This document shows, piece after piece, positions 10,662-35,140 of a stretch of 35,140 bases of DNA. The DNA comes from a virus (Duplodnaviria > Caudoviricetes), in IMG/VR virus record IMGVR_UViG_3300023269_000003, positions 1 to 35,140 of that record, one strand, 5' to 3'. The position numbers and the translations under genes are program-made. Position 1 is the first letter of the stretch, and each line of letters starts with the position of its first letter. The notes under the pieces were generated by a model. The model was not told the origin of the DNA. It searched no databases and was given only the letters and a program-made list of their open reading frames with translations.

Positions 10662-10818
10662 TCTAGCAGACGAGATTGCCAAGTTGATGGCCCTCGCCAG
10701 GTGTGGGTGTTCTGTCTATATGGACGGTAAACACTTGCCAACCCAGAAGGAACGTGTGGAAGCTATGTACTTGGCCCACACCTTCTACCAGCACCACCCA
10801 GAATTGGAATTCACGTGA
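10648..10818 (+). CDS. hypothetical protein (56 aa)
   Basis: GGAGG RBS, GTG 10648. Confidence 0.6.
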   Translation: MTLDDLADEIAKLMALARCGCSVYMDGKHLPTQKERVEAMYLAHTFYQHHPELEFT

Positions 10819-10904
10819 TTAAGTGGATGTACGACTGCCCTGATTGCGGGGCGTTCAGGGGCACCGGTCCTTGTCCTAACGGCTGCGACGCGAAGAAGGA
10901 CTGA
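10815..10904 (+). CDS. 29-aa Cys4 microprotein MIKWMYDCPDCGAFRGTGPCPNGCDAKKD
   Basis: GTGA coupling; fills the gap. Confidence 0.55.
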   Translation: MIKWMYDCPDCGAFRGTGPCPNGCDAKKD

Positions 10905-30780: not shown

Positions 30781-30784
30781 CCGG

Positions 30785-30856
30785 TCAGGATGGGTGGGAT
30801 CGAACCACCGGCCCCGCGCTTCCAAAGCGCTCACTCTACCTCTGAGCTACACCCTG
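30785..30856 (-). tRNA. tRNA-Pro(UGG)
   Basis: Cloverleaf; loop UU-UGG-AA; T-loop UUCGAUC. Confidence 0.9.
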
Positions 30857-30892
30857 ATGATGGTTGTTTAAGGGACAACCCACAAACCCTTG

Positions 30893-30965
30893 AGCCGCTA
30901 CTAGGACTTGAACCCAGAACCACCCGCTTACGAGGCGGGTGCTCTTCCATTTGAGCTACAACGGC
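30893..30965 (-). tRNA. tRNA-Thr(CGU)
   Basis: Cloverleaf; loop CU-CGU-AA. Confidence 0.92.
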
Positions 30966-30969
30966 AAAG

Positions 30970-31042
30970 CGGGGCCACGAGGGCTTGCACCTCGCACTGC
31001 GGTTTTGGAGACCGCTGTTTTGCTCACCTAAACTATGTCCCC
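30970..31042 (-). tRNA. tRNA-Trp(CCA)
   Basis: Loop CU-CCA-AA; atypical T-loop UGCAAGC; one acceptor mismatch. Confidence 0.8.
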
Positions 31043-31095
31043 TTGACTAGCACACGCAAAAGAACCGTCCGCAGTCTTTACACAAAAACACCATG

Positions 31096-31166
31096 CTGGT
31101 CGCCCTGGATTCGAACCAGGAACGCTGGGTTCAGAGCCCAGTGTGTTGCCGTTACACCAACAACCA
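31096..31166 (-). tRNA. tRNA-Gln(CUG)
   Basis: Cloverleaf; U1:A72; loop CU-CUG-AA. Confidence 0.92.
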
Positions 31167-31219
31167 TTGGTCCGTGCACACTCTTACGCAGGCGTCCCCA
31201 CTCGCGAATACACGGATTG

Positions 31220-31291
31220 TCATCCATCCAGGATTTGAACCTGGAACCTAGAGCTTAAGAGGCCCTTGCTCTACCCTTGAGCTAATGGACG
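31220..31291 (-). tRNA. tRNA-Lys(CUU)
   Basis: Cloverleaf; loop CU-CUU-AA. Confidence 0.92.
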
Positions 31292-31292
31292 G

Positions 31293-31366
31293 TCGCTCAC
31301 CCAGGTTTCGAACCTGGTACTTCCTACTCATCAGGTAGGCACTCTGACCAATTGAGTTAGCGAGCG
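31293..31366 (-). tRNA. tRNA-Ile(GAU)
   Basis: Cloverleaf; loop CU-GAU-GA (G37). Confidence 0.85.
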
Positions 31367-31375
31367 ATAAAACTA

Positions 31376-31501
31376 TCAACCATCGATCTGGCCATTGCCA
31401 TGACAGGTCGGACATACGATCTCCGTCTGACTACCGTCTGACTCACGCTGGTACACCGTACTCGATCCACCCTTGCAGGTGTAGCAATCTATCTTAGCCA
31501 C
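31376..31501 (-). CDS. 41-aa CxxC...CxxCxGxG zinc-binding microprotein inside the tRNA cluster
   Basis: AAGGAG RBS, GTG 31501: MAKIDCYTCKGG...CPTCHGNGQIDG. Confidence 0.7.
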   Translation of the reverse strand: MAKIDCYTCKGGSSTVYQRESDGSQTEIVCPTCHGNGQIDG

Positions 31502-31516
31502 TTCACTCCTTGTACG

Positions 31517-31594
31517 TGGTCGGTAAGGACGGGACTCGAACCCGCTAAGACCGGCTTCACAAACCGGTGCCTCGGCCACTTCGGCATCCTTCCT
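31517..31594 (-). tRNA. tRNA-His(GUG), imperfect acceptor stem
   Basis: Loop UU-GUG-AA; good D and T arms; CCA nearby; acceptor pairing poor. Confidence 0.7.
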
Positions 31595-31595
31595 G

Positions 31596-31667
31596 CTCCC
31601 ACAACTGGACTCGAACCAGTAACCCGCGCCTTAACAGGACGCTGCTCTGCCATTGAGCTATACGGGA
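31596..31667 (-). tRNA. tRNA-Asn(GUU)
   Basis: Cloverleaf; loop CU-GUU-AA; G73. Confidence 0.93.
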
Positions 31668-31672
31668 TTAAC

Positions 31673-31771
31673 GTGGCCGCTCGATACACCAAGTCACCGA
31701 TGGTTGTCGGGTCATTAGCATCGCTGGACCAACGGGTAGTTCCTGCCACTTCGAGTTTACTACCAACTTAG
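31673..31771 (-). ncRNA. candidate structured RNA between tRNA-Arg and tRNA-Asn
   Basis: Five complementary 5-7 bp segment pairs in about 100 nt; no family recognised. Confidence 0.4.
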
Positions 31772-31774
31772 ACG

Positions 31775-31850
31775 TCGCTCCTGAGGGATTCGAACCCCCG
31801 CAAACCCAGGTTCGTAGCCTGGTGCTCTGTCCGGACTGAGCTAAGAAGCG
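31775..31850 (-). tRNA. tRNA-Arg(ACG)
   Basis: Cloverleaf; loop CU-ACG-AA. Confidence 0.9.
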
Positions 31851-32020
31851 ATTTCTACACGGATACGATCGGCAATCCCGGACTTGAACTCTTCTACGTA
31901 GTCCATCCACTCTTGTGGCATGTTCTGCTGCCACATACCACGACTGGCTTCGATGAACCCCATATACAGGTCTTGGTACATCTTGGGCCATTCGTTGAAC
32001 TCTTCCTTGCTTGCGATCAT
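31841..32020 (-). CDS. 59-aa hypothetical protein ending inside tRNA-Arg
   Basis: GGAGG RBS, ATG 32020: MIASKEEFNEWPKMYQDLY...RVEIAS*. Confidence 0.7.
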   Translation of the reverse strand: MIASKEEFNEWPKMYQDLYMGFIEASRGMWQQNMPQEWMDYVEEFKSGIADRIRVEIAS

Positions 32021-32034
32021 CGATCCTCCGTAAG

Positions 32035-32108
32035 TGGTTACCCGCCAGGGAATCGAACCCTGATCTCCTGGGTGTAGGCCAGGAACTCTTCCTTTGAGCT
32101 AGCAGGCA
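32035..32108 (-). tRNA. tRNA-Val(UAC)
   Basis: Cloverleaf with encoded CCA; loop CC-UAC-AC (C33). Confidence 0.82.
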
Positions 32109-32111
32109 AAG

Positions 32112-32185
32112 CCGAAACGCTTGGATTTGAACCAAGAACCCGTGGCTTTTCACGCCACTGCTCTTCCAAGTTGAGCTACGTCCCG
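32112..32185 (-). tRNA. tRNA-Phe(GAA)
   Basis: Cloverleaf; loop GU-GAA-AA (G32). Confidence 0.85.
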
Positions 32186-32189
32186 TTGA

Positions 32190-32263
32190 TCCCAGTTCAA
32201 GGACTCGAACCTCGAACTCCCGAGTTACAGTCAGGCCGGTTGCCAATTACCATACAAACTGGG
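32190..32263 (-). tRNA. tRNA-Tyr(GUA), short variable loop
   Basis: Loop CU-GUA-AC; C1:G72; 4-nt variable region; irregular D arm. Confidence 0.75.
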
Positions 32264-32267
32264 ATAG

Positions 32268-32342
32268 TACCCCTCCCCAGATTCGAACTGGGAACCTTCC
32301 GGGTCTGAGCCGGACGCCTCTGCCAGGTTGGGCTAGAAGGGC
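32268..32342 (-). tRNA. tRNA-Leu(CAG), short variable loop
   Basis: Cloverleaf; loop CU-CAG-AC; 5-nt variable region. Confidence 0.82.
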
Positions 32343-32345
32343 AAA

Positions 32346-32418
32346 TACCGCACCGTGGATTTGCACCACGACAACAGGAGCTTATGAGACTCCCTGCGCA
32401 CTCCGCGCACGGTGTGTT
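32346..32418 (-). tRNA. tRNA(CAU) Met/Ile2-like, degenerate
   Basis: Loop CU-CAU-AA; minimal D arm; T-loop UGCAAAU; weak acceptor stem. Confidence 0.6.
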
Positions 32419-32483
32419 ACCCCGCTTTGATTCCCAGACGGGGGTCAACTGGGTGGGGTCATTAGACCCTCAAATCACTATGG

Positions 32484-32576
32484 CTATCGACGAGGGCAGG
32501 AGAACATGTGCTGTCCACCCTTGAGCCCGCAATCGGGGCATCCTTCGTCGCCTGGAACAAACTGGATATTACTCAC
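32484..32576 (-). CDS. 30-aa CxxC-x6-H-x3-C microprotein MSNIQFVPGDEGCPDCGLKGGQHMFSCPRR
   Basis: GTGA coupling; shared motif. Confidence 0.7.
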   Translation of the reverse strand: MSNIQFVPGDEGCPDCGLKGGQHMFSCPRR

Positions 32577-32650
32577 CACGGCCTATTCGGGCAGGTTGGG
32601 CTGTGGTTGTCGCCTAGACCGCCACACCACCTGCACTTGGTAGTCGTCAC
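32573..32650 (-). CDS. 25-aa CxxC-x6-H-x3-C microprotein MTTTKCRWCGGLGDNHSPTCPNRPW
   Basis: GTGA coupling; shared motif. Confidence 0.7.
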   Translation of the reverse strand: MTTTKCRWCGGLGDNHSPTCPNRPW

Positions 32651-32763
32651 TTGTTCTCGTTCTGTAGGTCCTTGATCACGTCACACCATGAGGCGTGTAC
32701 CCCACCGCTGTTGTGACAGGTGTCGCAGCGTTCTACGCCGTCTTCATCCTTGTACCTCAACAT
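32647..32763 (-). CDS. 38-aa CxxC-x6-H-x3-C microprotein MLRYKDEDGVERCDTCHNSGGVHASWCDVIKDLQNENK
   Basis: 7-nt overlap with upstream ORF; shared motif. Confidence 0.7.
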   Translation of the reverse strand: MLRYKDEDGVERCDTCHNSGGVHASWCDVIKDLQNENK

Positions 32764-32852
32764 GCGGGCTGATCTCTATCTGGGTTGCGGATACACCACG
32801 AGGCGTGATTACCTGCGGAGTGTCCACATTCCTTACACTTGGTGTCTGACAC
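32757..32852 (-). CDS. 31-aa CxxC-x6-H-x3-C microprotein MSDTKCKECGHSAGNHASWCIRNPDRDQPAC
   Basis: GGAG RBS, GTG 32852; shared motif. Confidence 0.7.
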   Translation of the reverse strand: MSDTKCKECGHSAGNHASWCIRNPDRDQPAC

Positions 32853-32854
32853 GT

Positions 32855-32932
32855 CTACTCCGTAGGACATTGGCCGCCGGTAGGGCAATCTTCAACCCTC
32901 GAACCACAGCCATCGCAAATTGTTGGAGCCAT
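32855..32932 (-). CDS. 25-aa Cys4 microprotein MAPTICDGCGSRVEDCPTGGQCPTE
   Basis: TAATG coupling to the lysin stop; CxxC-x6-C-x5-C. Confidence 0.65.
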   Translation of the reverse strand: MAPTICDGCGSRVEDCPTGGQCPTE

Positions 32933-33846
32933 TACTTCTTTACCAAATCCACATCTACCTTGTCTACCAAGGCGTCTGCGAGCTTGTCTACGTCAACCAC
33001 ACCCGCCGAAACACCCTTGATCAGGTCTTCCAGCTTCGTGAGTCGGGCTTCAAGCTCGGTAATTACCTGGCCCGTGGACTTACCGTTGGTTAGGTAAGGC
33101 AGGCTCAGGTCAGTACGGATATCCACAACCGCTTCGTAGAGATACTTGATGACGTTACCCGTCGACACACCGTTCGCGAGGAAGGGAATCGTCAGGTCGT
33201 TCCGTAGGTCTACGAGCGAATCATAGATGTACTGCTGCTGAGTATCGGTTAGCGCCATGAAAGGGCCTCCTGAGGTAGCGTTTCGGGCCTCCGCACGGAA
33301 GGCGTTCATGTCGATCATCTGTCCGGACCTGAAGCCGGGGTCCCACTTGCCTTCGTAACCCCTGCCGTTGACTTCACCATGTCCGCGAACAACGTTGATA
33401 TCCCCGTTGGCAAACAGATCGGCCACCGTCTTGGCGAAGACCTTGGCAGTGGAGTACTGCGCAGCCGTCATCGGCGAGACACCGGGGTAAACAATTTCAA
33501 GACCAACCGTGTAGTAATTCCGGTTGGAAGCGTAAGGACTCAAAGGTCCCTGGTTCGGACCAAAACCACCCCCCGCGTGCCATGCGACACCAGAAGCGAG
33601 GACCGTCAACGAACCATCGGCATTGCCCGCGAAGTTGGCAAGTGCCTGCCCGTACGCCCAATCCTGAGTGGACGACACAAGGCCTGCGTAGGCCGAACCA
33701 TAGTTGGAACCGGTGTGGTGGATAATGGCTCCCCGGATGTCGATCTGGGGCTTACCCTCGTTACCACGGCCGTTCCAGCCCGACCATTCGTATACTGTGA
33801 CACCACGCGCTCTCAGCGCGTTGACAAGGTCTGCAACGTCACTCAT
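32932..33846 (-). CDS. endolysin, N-acetylmuramoyl-L-alanine amidase (Amidase_2)
   Basis: IIHHTG, AWHAG, GLE, GH.E...K.DPG; repeated C-terminal region. Confidence 0.92.
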   Translation of the reverse strand: MSDVADLVNALRARGVTVYEWSGWNGRGNEGKPQIDIRGAIIHHTGSNYGSAYAGLVSSTQDWAYGQALANFAGNADGSLTVLASGVAWHAGGGFGPNQGPLSPYASNRNYYTVGLEIVYPGVSPMTAAQYSTAKVFAKTVADLFANGDINVVRGHGEVNGRGYEGKWDPGFRSGQMIDMNAFRAEARNATSGGPFMALTDTQQQYIYDSLVDLRNDLTIPFLANGVSTGNVIKYLYEAVVDIRTDLSLPYLTNGKSTGQVITELEARLTKLEDLIKGVSAGVVDVDKLADALVDKVDVDLVKK

Positions 33847-33984: not shown

Positions 33985-34413
33985 TTAGGATACCTTGCTG
34001 GCACGTTCCTTGAAGTAAGCAGCAATATCGGTGATCTCAGCTTCCTGACCATCACGCTCAACTTCGATCCTCACACGCCTACGGTCGCCTTCGGTGACCA
34101 ACAGGTTGGACAGCGCGGAGTTGATAGCCGCAAACATGACCGCCGAAGGCTTCTCGCCTTGGCGCATAAGCTTGTTGATGAAGTACATCACGTACCGGGC
34201 GTATTCCCAGTCGGATGGTTCATAATACTTGGCTTGTGCCGACTCCTTCAGGGAGTCGTAGAAGTTCACTACCATTGGATGTGGGTCATCCAGAGCTAGT
34301 GGTGGTGCAATAACCAGTCCGGCTGCTACTAGCTTCTCGATCGGAATGACTTCGGCATTCCGACGAACCCTCTCGTCGCTTCGCTTCGGTACTGGACCGG
34401 TAATCCCTGCCAT
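33985..34413 (-). CDS. terS: terminase small subunit
   Basis: GPVPKRSDERVRRN, YYEPSDW, LLVTEGDRRRVRIEVER. Confidence 0.85.
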   Translation of the reverse strand: MAGITGPVPKRSDERVRRNAEVIPIEKLVAAGLVIAPPLALDDPHPMVVNFYDSLKESAQAKYYEPSDWEYARYVMYFINKLMRQGEKPSAVMFAAINSALSNLLVTEGDRRRVRIEVERDGQEAEITDIAAYFKERASKVS

Positions 34414-34731: not shown

Positions 34732-35140
34732 ACTAACCCCTAACTGTTTATCAGGTTTTGGGAACGGTCGTGGACGACCCACTGACCGCCCCATCTTCCC
34801 GATGGGGCTAGGAGAAGGAACTCGGAGAGTTTCTTCCCTTTGGGACCTCCTCCTTTAACCCGGAGGTCTTCAAAAAATTTTACCAAGACGCCTTTGAGGG
34901 CGTCTACCGAACGATGAGTGAGGTAGTGCCCCCCTTACCCCCCAGATCAGGGGTTTTGGTGGTTTTTCCCTCTCTCACCCTGTATATACCTGCCGCAGAC
35001 ACGTGTTTTGACACAACTGTGACGAGGCTCACACATGTAACTGTGCGTGAAATATATACTTGCACGTGCAACTATGTGCCTGTTTACGCTCTGACCAGCA
35101 CTTTTGGCCTCAGCAACCCGTACGGGACCAGGGTGGCGCT
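34732..35140. other. non-coding region, probably near the physical (left) genome end
   Basis: No convincing ORF; lies upstream of HNH/TerS; hairpins and GGGGGGTAAGGGGGG on the minus strand. Confidence 0.5.

What the first reader, a model, noticed from the sequence alone, without database searches (positions are those of the whole stretch)
32484..32932. Five coupled micro zinc-finger genes after the lysin, four with exact CxxC-x6-H-x3-C spacing
The apparent gap between lysin and tRNAs is fully tiled on the minus strand by 25, 31, 38, 25 and 30 aa ORFs linked by TAATG/GTGA or short overlaps. Cores: CKEC-GHSAGN-H-ASW-C, CDTC-HNSGGV-H-ASW-C, CRWC-GGLGDN-H-SPT-C, CPDC-GLKGGQ-H-MFS-C, and a Cys4 variant CDGC-GSRVED-C-PTGGQ-C. 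Fixed ligand spacing with variable loops and flanks, across different reading frames, is hard to explain by chance. It resembles a zinc knuckle (CCHC is C-x2-C-x4-H-x4-C) with different spacing. Inference: a diversified array of minimal RNA- or protein-binding modules, possibly tRNA-related, lysis-timing or anti-defence. I do not recognise a described system of this form.
Basis: partly seen in the sequence, partly recalled or inferred. Interest (0 to 1): 0.88.

Follow-up and report, generated by a model that had tools for sequence, protein, structure and literature searches.

The report
Free-standing nuclease-type zinc fingers heading tRNAs
A phage related to those of mycobacteria carries five back-to-back, strain-conserved genes for 25-38-residue cysteine/histidine peptides, predicted to bind zinc, that resemble the finger modules of phage homing nucleases and sit at the head of its tRNA genes, where they likely help the phage counter host defences.

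Summary
Five coupled ORFs (25, 31, 38, 25, 30 aa) tile 32932-32484. The window's only four C-x2-C-x6-H-x3-C motifs lie there, and strain differences are mostly silent (pN/pS 0.09). The array goes with the tRNA block, not the lysin: a relative has three such genes behind a methyltransferase, one with a lost Cys.

The motif is a mobile module with no Pfam family above cut-off. It recurs as 6-19 tandem fingers on SegB-type GIY-YIG nucleases, on DUF397 and on a surface protein. A profile of the nuclease repeats ranks ORF5, ORF2 and ORF4 top among 1175 window segments, but the microproteins mostly lack the repeats' basic residues. tRNA blocks of related phages hold many other Cys-rich micro-ORFs (40 sense, 1 antisense, 1.6 expected; 9 of 19 blocks).

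Best reading (0.4): zinc-stabilised minimal binders, each with its own host protein partner, carried on a counter-defence tRNA operon. tRNA or DNA binding is the main rival (0.3). Translation, zinc binding and targets are untested. The scan noted this array before on other DNA (e1-9714949); that note's listing does not mention the nuclease-finger link.

The parts
32855..32932 (-). ORF1, 25 aa, Cys4 (C-x2-C-x6-C-x5-C); start overlaps lysin stop (TAATG)
   Evidence: 8 silent / 4 replacement codons; start kept through an indel in L003; not matched by the CCHC profiles
32757..32852 (-). ORF2, 31 aa, C-x2-C-x6-H-x3-C, tail N-H-x2-W-C-x2-N-P-x-R; GGAG upstream of the GTG
   Evidence: 9 silent / 5 replacement; nuclease-repeat profile, 0 of 500 ligand-fixed shuffles reach it; tail profile of Vsr-like nuclease fingers, 3 of 5000 (post hoc); phrog_7051 weak
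32647..32763 (-). ORF3, 38 aa, C-x2-C-x6-H-x3-C plus predicted C-terminal helix
   Evidence: 3 silent / 0; AlphaFold2 pLDDT 70, helix 28-36; nuclease-repeat profile not significant, 41 of 500
32573..32650 (-). ORF4, 25 aa, C-x2-C-x6-H-x3-C
   Evidence: 2 silent / 0; ortholog in L224 has 12 of 15 core residues identical, 6 of the 12 codons silently changed; 2 of 500
32484..32576 (-). ORF5, 30 aa, C-P-x-C-G-x5-H-x3-C
   Evidence: 10 silent / 3; top of 1175 window segments with the nuclease-repeat profile, 0 of 500; likely ortholog in L224 has Tyr for the second Cys
32421..32454 (-). Conserved short element directly after the array (possible stem or processing signal)
   Evidence: invariant core in the 5 loci aligned, including L224; folding z only -1.25 and 0.66; no Rfam family
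32346..32413 (-). tRNA-Met(CAT)-like gene missed by ARAGORN and Rfam
   Evidence: cloverleaf-like minimum-energy fold with CAU loop in window and L224; z -0.17 and -1.77
30783..32342 (-). Block of 13 called tRNA genes, same strand as the array
31376..31501 (-). 41-aa DnaJ/anti-TRAP-like Cys4 micro-ORF between tRNA-His and tRNA-Ile; variants or other Cys micro-ORFs at this slot in L002, L003, L108
   Evidence: Pfam DnaJ_CXXCXGXG E 8e-5, below cut-off
31047..31094 (-). 15-aa C-x2-C-x4-C-x-C micro-ORF between tRNA-Gln and tRNA-Trp
   Evidence: sequence; kept in strains
32932..33846 (-). Amidase_2 endolysin upstream; neighbour, not the conserved partner
   Evidence: 50% to the L003 lysin
33985..34413 (-). 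Small terminase
   Evidence: Pfam Terminase_7 E 2e-41
34877..34906 (-). Promoter-like site upstream of HNH, small terminase, lysin, array and tRNAs
   Evidence: consensus match only, 2 found against 2.0 expected

Best explanation
The five ORFs are separate genes under purifying selection whose products likely fold around one zinc ion each and likely act as minimal binders of host proteins, probably helping the neighbouring phage tRNAs keep translation going against host defences. Shown: the frames, the coupling junctions, the selection, the gain, loss and decay of copies between relatives, the fixed position at the head of the tRNA block, and likeness of ORF2, ORF4 and ORF5 to fingers on homing-type nucleases. 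Inferred, step by step: (1) one transcript from the left end carries lysin, array and tRNAs, and stop/start overlaps give near-equal amounts of each peptide; (2) a zinc ion is what lets a 25-residue cytoplasmic peptide fold, which is why several unrelated Cys/His scaffolds fill the spacers of these tRNA blocks; (3) the CCHC finger shares ancestry with nuclease DNA-binding fingers but has mostly lost their Lys/Arg, so the surface is reused; (4) each paralog keeps its own loop and so probably has its own partner, most likely a host defence or translation-control protein.
For: Selection and coupling. Paralog-specific loops: the ORF4 ortholog in L224 keeps 12 of 15 core residues while window paralogs share 5-9 of 15. 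Turnover: 5 genes in the strain cluster, 3 in L224 with one Cys-to-Tyr, none in G003 or G004. Several scaffolds in the same setting: 40 sense against 1 antisense and 1.6 expected Cys micro-ORFs in 19 tRNA blocks; 18 in 6 of 16 blocks once the three strains are left out. Charge: net -3, 0, -3, +2, 0 against +2.6 per nuclease repeat; Lys/Arg at His+1 or +2 in 671 of 736 nuclease repeats, 2 of 31 motifs of small proteins and 0 of 4 window ORFs. The module also sits where DNA reading is unlikely: 5 copies in a sortase-anchored protein (P0006), and fused to DUF397. Phage tRNAs are proposed or shown to counter tRNA-cutting defences (PMC10264068 abstract; PMC13096335 passages).
Against: No partner, phenotype, translation or metal binding is shown. 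The best-defined relatives are fingers on DNA-cutting enzymes, which points to nucleic acid. The small-protein set was found with a profile built from these ORFs, so its lack of basic residues is partly built in. The CC-x2-C-V-F-G subfamily sits in 62 loci mostly as a single gene, often beside terminase or portal genes; only 2 of the 66 loci scanned had tRNAs, so the module as such is not tied to tRNA. 10 of 19 tRNA blocks have no such ORF. Five of 14 purified haloarchaeal C(P)XCG microproteins held no zinc (PMC11241148 abstract).
Confidence: 0.4

Rival explanations
1. Free-standing nucleic-acid readers: fingers detached from homing-nuclease DNA-binding arrays that bind the phage pre-tRNA transcript, the tRNAs or the tRNA locus, helping processing or shielding it from host anticodon nucleases or rival homing nucleases.
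For: A profile of 798 repeats from 121 nuclease-type proteins, built without window sequence, ranks ORF5, ORF2, ORF4 first of 1175 segments, beyond ligand-fixed shuffles (0, 0, 2 of 500); the domain before the repeats matches T4 SegB at 35.7 bits against a shuffle maximum of 6.6. T4 segB lies among tRNA genes. Three T4-like phages carry, between annotated tRNA genes, NUMOD3/Vsr-like nucleases whose N-terminal finger ends like ORF2 and the first L224 gene (3 and 0 of 5000). ORF2 and ORF3 keep a Trp; aromatic stacking on bases is how retroviral knuckles bind RNA (recalled).
Against: Basic residues are missing; one 15-residue finger gives little affinity; ORF3 is not significant against the repeat profile (41 of 500); ORF3 and ORF5 do not match the tail profile, ORF4 only weakly (160 of 5000); the nuclease family was found through these ORFs' own weak hits (E 0.1-10); shared glycines may be convergent knuckle geometry.
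Confidence: 0.3
2. Zinc or redox buffers: the peptides soak up or hand over metal late in infection, for instance tuning the zinc-dependent amidase and so lysis timing.
For: ORF1 is coupled to an Amidase_2 lysin (zinc dependence of that family is recalled); many unrelated Cys-rich peptides share the operon.
Against: In L224 the array follows a methyltransferase; the lysin is swapped in L003 with the array kept; non-ligand loops are conserved by paralog, which a plain sink does not need; L013 has a related lysin and no array.
Confidence: 0.1
3. Relics: a multi-finger gene, such as a homing nuclease, broke into pieces, or micro-genes duplicated, and the pieces are near-neutral or are translated only to keep ribosomes on the transcript up to the tRNAs.
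For: Likeness to nuclease arrays; homing nucleases invade tRNA clusters; one L224 copy has lost a Cys; most related phages lack the array (11 of 125 loci have the motif, 10 of them strains of one phage).
Against: pN/pS 0.09 with ligands invariant; every junction has its own start codon in window and L224; motif period is about 92-110 nt against about 23 residues (69 nt) in nuclease arrays; no GIY-YIG remnant in six frames of window, L222, L224, L108.
Confidence: 0.1
4. Packaging or assembly accessories of the late operon.
For: The array lies between small and large terminase genes; a related subfamily often lies next to terminase or portal genes.
Against: Absent from most phages with this small terminase; rapid turnover.
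Confidence: 0.07

Closest known systems
PHROG phrog_7051 (37 positions, unknown function)
   Same: Matches the CxxCG-x5-H-x3-C module: ORF2 E 0.029, nuclease repeat proteins E down to 6e-18 summed over repeats.
   Different: Only ORF2 of five scores, weakly; at E 1 the family also rings in 12 of 14 control genomes; no function attached.
Seg-type GIY-YIG homing endonucleases (T4 SegB) and zinc-finger-array homing nucleases (T5orf172/CapR type, from earlier scan notes)
   Same: A family of 174 clusters carries a SegB-like domain plus 6-19 fingers of this spacing (121 analysed). SegB sits among T4 tRNA genes (PMC2330249 listing).
   Different: The window fingers are separate genes, have no nuclease and are not basic. 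No Pfam family, CapR included, matched the repeats at E 0.01.
N-terminal C2HC finger of NUMOD3/DUF559 (Vsr-like) nucleases in tRNA clusters of T4-like phages
   Same: Tail N-H-x2-W-C-x2-N-P-x-R as in ORF2 and the first L224 gene.
   Different: Spacer of 8-17 residues, not 6; Arg at His+2 in 61%; fused to a nuclease.
One-domain zinc-finger microproteins of haloarchaea and their viruses (C(P)XCG proteins; HF1-group haloviruses)
   Same: Stand-alone proteins under 70 aa with CxxC motifs, numerous in some viruses, targets mostly unknown (PMC11241148 abstract; PMC7230728 passages).
   Different: Those have two C(P)XCG motifs; these have one CxxC plus H-x3-C, are 25-38 aa, and form a coupled array at a tRNA block.
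Retroviral-type CCHC zinc knuckle (C-x2-C-x4-H-x4-C; recalled) and Pfam zf-CCHC_6
   Same: Same ligand order and a similar CxxCGxxG first half; ORF4 scores 16.9 bits on zf-CCHC_6.
   Different: Spacing is x6/x3; below the 22-bit cut-off; not basic.
Anti-TRAP (RtpA)
   Same: Small stand-alone zinc protein that binds a protein (recalled); the DnaJ-type micro-ORFs of this tRNA block score weakly on it.
   Different: Does not match the five ORFs of the finding; all scores below cut-off.

Membership tests
Retroviral-type CCHC zinc knuckle | C-x2-C-x4-H-x4-C spacing (recalled) | tested here: not met
   x6/x3 in all four; no zf-CCHC hit, zf-CCHC_6 below cut-off
Retroviral-type CCHC zinc knuckle | Binds single-stranded RNA | not testable with these tools
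   needs a binding assay
phrog_7051 | Significant profile match | tested here: inconclusive
   ORF2 E 0.029, 14.2 bits; the other four no hit; controls ring at E 1
Finger arrays of Seg-type GIY-YIG nucleases | C-x2-C-x5/6-H-x3-C finger with CxxCG and G-x-H | tested here: met
   ORF2, ORF4, ORF5 beyond ligand-fixed shuffles; ORF3 not
Finger arrays of Seg-type GIY-YIG nucleases | GIY-YIG domain in the same chain or nearby | tested here: not met
   none in six frames of window, L222, L224, L108
Finger arrays of Seg-type GIY-YIG nucleases | Tandem fingers in one polypeptide, basic after His | tested here: not met
   separate ORFs in three frames; 0 of 4 with Lys/Arg at His+1/+2 against 671 of 736
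C2HC finger of Vsr-like tRNA-cluster nucleases | N-H-x2-W-C-x2-N-P-x-R tail | tested here: inconclusive
   ORF2 3 of 5000 and L224 first gene 0 of 5000, but the family was reached through these genes; ORF4 weak (160), ORF3 and ORF5 no
C2HC finger of Vsr-like tRNA-cluster nucleases | Spacer of 8-17 residues and a fused nuclease | tested here: not met
Haloarchaeal C(P)XCG microproteins | Stand-alone, under 70 aa | tested here: met
   25-38 aa
Haloarchaeal C(P)XCG microproteins | [quoted passage not shown] | tested here: not met
   one CxxC per ORF (definition from PMC11241148 abstract)
Zinc fingers in general | Tetrahedral zinc binding | not testable with these tools
   ligands invariant among strains; ORF3 model pLDDT 70 without metal
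Any solved fold | Structural match | tested here: inconclusive
   best Z 2.4; no Foldseek match at E 0.001
FAM221 domain (PF14753) | Pfam profile match | tested here: not met
   no hit at E 1 for any of the five

The most novel reading that the evidence does not exclude
A split polydactyl finger protein: the phage has domesticated the reading fingers of a homing nuclease as five co-translated free modules that assemble in trans on its own tRNA transcript or locus and guard it against host tRNA-cutting defences or rival homing nucleases. Phage tRNA operons would then be two-part counter-defence islands: replacement tRNAs plus a fast-turning library of hidden 12-40-residue zinc binders.
Probability: 0.12. 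Interest if true: 0.85.

Novelty: new variant of a known kind. Interest (0 to 1): 0.54.

Why it matters
These are among the smallest stand-alone predicted zinc folds, below the reach of most gene callers, and tRNA blocks of this phage clade hold several kinds of them. If they are binders of defence or translation proteins, phage tRNA clusters carry an overlooked protein arm, which bears on the old question of what such clusters do; all can be made synthetically and tested at once. The search also exposed a family of SegB-like nucleases (174 clusters) with 6-19 compact 23-residue fingers that matched no Pfam family, a candidate natural modular DNA-reading code.

Tried and rejected
Chance or shadow ORFs: rejected. 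One frameshifted gene today: rejected. Lysin coupling as the key link: rejected.

Cultured phages: blastn of the array gave one 22-nt chance hit; tblastn of ORF2, ORF5, P0035 and the first L224 gene gave nothing significant. The Vibrio and Gordonia hits followed up were not this module. PADLOC: 0 of 11 proteins. PDB sequences: none for A4, best E 0.14 for A7.

Folds: the ORF3 model gave best Z 2.4 and no Foldseek match. The single-sequence P0035 model was poor (pLDDT 51); its top hit was the I-TevI catalytic domain at E 1.0, not significant. ESM Atlas: best 0.85, unnamed clusters, a lead only.

Expression: the one RNA run found (X1, contigs) covers tRNA genes of a related phage at about 90-95% and not the array, so it says nothing on it. 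No loci were found for the nuclease-repeat family in viral contigs, so its genomic context is unseen. Host: not fixed; capsid 67% to mycobacteriophages, nearest small terminase in genomes 58% in a Pseudonocardiaceae contig, lysin scan empty.

No complex prediction was obtained for ORF2 with ORF3. No collection-wide census of tandem arrays by DNA pattern was made, so the number of arrays in public data is open.

Full report
Setting. The window is a linear virus record, 64% complete by CheckV, whose capsid is 67% identical to those of mycobacteriophages. On the minus strand the left end runs HNH, small terminase, Amidase_2 lysin, the array, 13 called tRNAs, a tail-like protein and a 559-aa gene that I read as large terminase without scanning it. 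One promoter-like site precedes HNH; it is no more than chance predicts. The host is not known.

Observation. The five ORFs are as described. The strict motif C-x2-C-x6-H-x3-C occurs four times in the window's six frames, all here and on one strand; 7 of 5000 region shuffles had one copy and none had two. Five loci at 93-99% small-terminase identity carry the four motif ORFs. Using three of them (L001, L002, L003), 37 of 51 changes fall on third positions, 32 codons change silently and 12 not, no ligand changes, and pN/pS against L003 is 0.09. ORF3 and ORF4 contribute only 3 and 2 changes. A 1-nt indel at the lysin stop keeps a start codon for ORF1. Translation itself is not shown.

What the array travels with. 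In L003 the lysin is 50% identical to the window's while the small terminase is 93% and the array is kept. L224 (complete 54.7-kb record G001, small terminase 81%) has three coupled genes of 33, 24 and 24 aa, joined to a methyltransferase gene that lies between lysin and array. Its second gene is the ORF4 ortholog, with 12 of 15 core residues identical and 6 of those 12 codons silently changed; window paralogs share 5-9 of 15. Its third gene has Tyr for the second Cys. In both phages a short conserved element and a tRNA-Met-like gene follow. Of 125 loci fetched with small-terminase or tail-protein alignments (sense strand, many redundant), 11 hold the motif: 10 strain copies with four and L224 with two. 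G003 and G004 have none genome-wide. The array is therefore narrow, changes in copy number, and goes with the tRNA block.

The wider setting. In 19 tRNA blocks that I picked as one per lineage, Cys-rich ORFs of at most 50 aa number 40 on the tRNA strand, 1 on the other, against 1.6 in shuffles; 9 blocks have them and 10 do not. Three blocks are strains of this phage (22 of the 40); without them it is 18 in 6 of 16, and one L225 ORF overlaps a tRNA and is probably spurious. They are of several kinds: DnaJ/anti-TRAP-like, C-x2-C-xn-C-x-C, and C-x2-C-x4-H-xn-C. L225 has six in a row. The window has two more (31376-31501, 31047-31094).

The module elsewhere. A profile of the four CCHC ORFs and five relatives found 37 proteins among 1.84 billion. 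The exact spacing appears in stand-alone proteins of 31-37 aa, at the C-terminus of DUF397 proteins, five times in a sortase-anchored protein, as the fixed N-terminal part of phage proteins with free tails, and in tandem on larger proteins. The fixed-N-terminus subfamily gave 62 loci. Among 66 loci scanned, 5 had two copies and 2 had tRNAs (neither of these with a strict motif ORF), and 9 of 59 neighbours scanned matched terminase or portal families. The tandem type gave 174 clusters. In 121 analysed there are 6-19 fingers (median 11); 856 of 1400 have the x6 spacer and 419 have x5; the usual linker is 8. The 115 residues before the repeats match T4 SegB at 35.7 bits (300 shuffles, best 6.6), and 107 of 118 have its YxGSG motif. 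These are Seg-type GIY-YIG proteins, and by position the fingers are likely their DNA-binding part (inference). A profile of 798 such repeats, free of window sequence, ranks ORF5, ORF2 and ORF4 first among 1175 six-frame segments. With ligands fixed and the rest shuffled, 0, 0 and 2 of 500 reach the real scores; for ORF3, 41 of 500 do. Shared glycines could be convergent.

A second link came from weak tblastn hits (E 0.1-10). T4-like phages of Acinetobacter, Providencia and Klebsiella carry, between annotated tRNA genes, 218-225-aa NUMOD3 plus Vsr-like proteins with an N-terminal C2HC finger; an Enterobacter phage has a like protein, with no tRNA annotated in the stretch shown. In 119 homologs, seeds left out, 49 have the finger, with spacers of 8-17. 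Its tail profile matches ORF2 (3 of 5000) and the first L224 gene (0 of 5000), ORF4 weakly (160) and ORF3, ORF5 and the second L224 gene not at all. This test is post hoc.

Against DNA reading by the free fingers. Nuclease repeats carry +2.6 per 22 residues and Lys/Arg after His in 671 of 736. The window ORFs carry -3, 0, -3, +2, 0 and none has Lys/Arg there; small-protein motifs have it in 2 of 31, a set biased by my query. No GIY-YIG remnant lies in the window or three relatives.

Mechanism. I commit at 0.4 to zinc-stabilised minimal protein binders carried on a counter-defence tRNA operon. The grounds are paralog-specific loops under selection, quick gain and loss, several unrelated scaffolds in the same slots, loss of basic residues, and use of the module in non-DNA settings. 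Nucleic-acid binding stands at 0.3, metal buffering at 0.1, relic at 0.1, packaging aid at 0.07. That the genes are real and bind a metal I put near 0.85. No partner, metal or phenotype was measured.

Literature. Searches of open-access full text listed no paper on this spacing or on such arrays at phage tRNA clusters; subscription papers are largely outside that library, and I read no supplements, where small-ORF lists may hold these genes. Seen: PMC7230728 passages, PMC13096335 passages, PMC11241148 and PMC10264068 abstract and outline, PMC2330249, PMC3239194 and PMC3664794 search listing only. Retroviral knuckle spacing and RNA binding, anti-TRAP function and amidase zinc use are recalled. 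Earlier scan notes report this array in another genome (e1-9714949) and other Cys/His arrays at phage tRNA clusters; they are unchecked leads, not support.

Verdict. A real, undescribed variant of stand-alone zinc-finger microproteins, with a plausible kinship to homing-nuclease fingers and an open function. Interest 0.54.

Noticed in passing
proteins P0005, P0007, P0009, P0017, P0035, P0054-P0169: Family of SegB-like GIY-YIG proteins (174 clusters) with 6-19 compact, basic C-x2-C-x5/6-H-x3-C fingers; several hits share one longest-contig length, suggesting paralogs in a genome; the five scanned had no Pfam match to the repeats. Genomic context not obtained.
   Followed up: partly
window 31675-31730 (-), between tRNA-Arg and tRNA-Asn; L002, L003, L108, L224, L225: Conserved two-stem RNA element with an internal loop and a free inner hairpin, directly 5' of tRNA-Asn; 9 invariant pairs, no Rfam family.
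   Followed up: partly
window 32421-32454 (-); L002, L003, L108, L224: Invariant short element right after the array and before the first tRNA; possible stem, pseudoknot or processing signal; folding not better than shuffles.
   Followed up: partly
window 32346-32413 (-): tRNA-Met(CAT)-like gene missed by ARAGORN and Rfam; replaced by a different copy in L002 and L003.
   Followed up: partly
L002 about 2775-2850 and L003 about 2855-2928: An extra 75-nt structured-looking insert before tRNA-Leu, absent from the window; no Rfam match at gathering score.
   Followed up: no
L225 255-748: Six closely packed Cys-rich micro-ORFs of 14-39 aa between tRNA-Asn and tRNA-Pro, of other scaffolds than the finding's.
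   Followed up: partly
L236 2447-3124, L237 2465-3133, L238 2465-3121: Nucleases annotated as hypothetical (C2HC finger, NUMOD3, Vsr-like) between tRNA genes of T4-like phages, in the SegB-like position.
   Followed up: partly
L042-L103: Phage subfamily with a fixed N-terminal CC-x2-C-V-F-G finger and a freely varying tail, often next to terminase-like or portal genes.
   Followed up: partly
L032 2827-3060; P0002, P0003, P0030: DUF397 proteins with this finger fused at the C-terminus, and close stand-alone 31-37 aa versions.
   Followed up: partly
window 31841-32020 (-): 59-aa ORF without cysteines between tRNA-Val and tRNA-Arg, absent from L003; no family.
   Followed up: no
window about 10790-10840 (+): A further loose C-P-x-C-G motif in the replication arm.
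   Followed up: no
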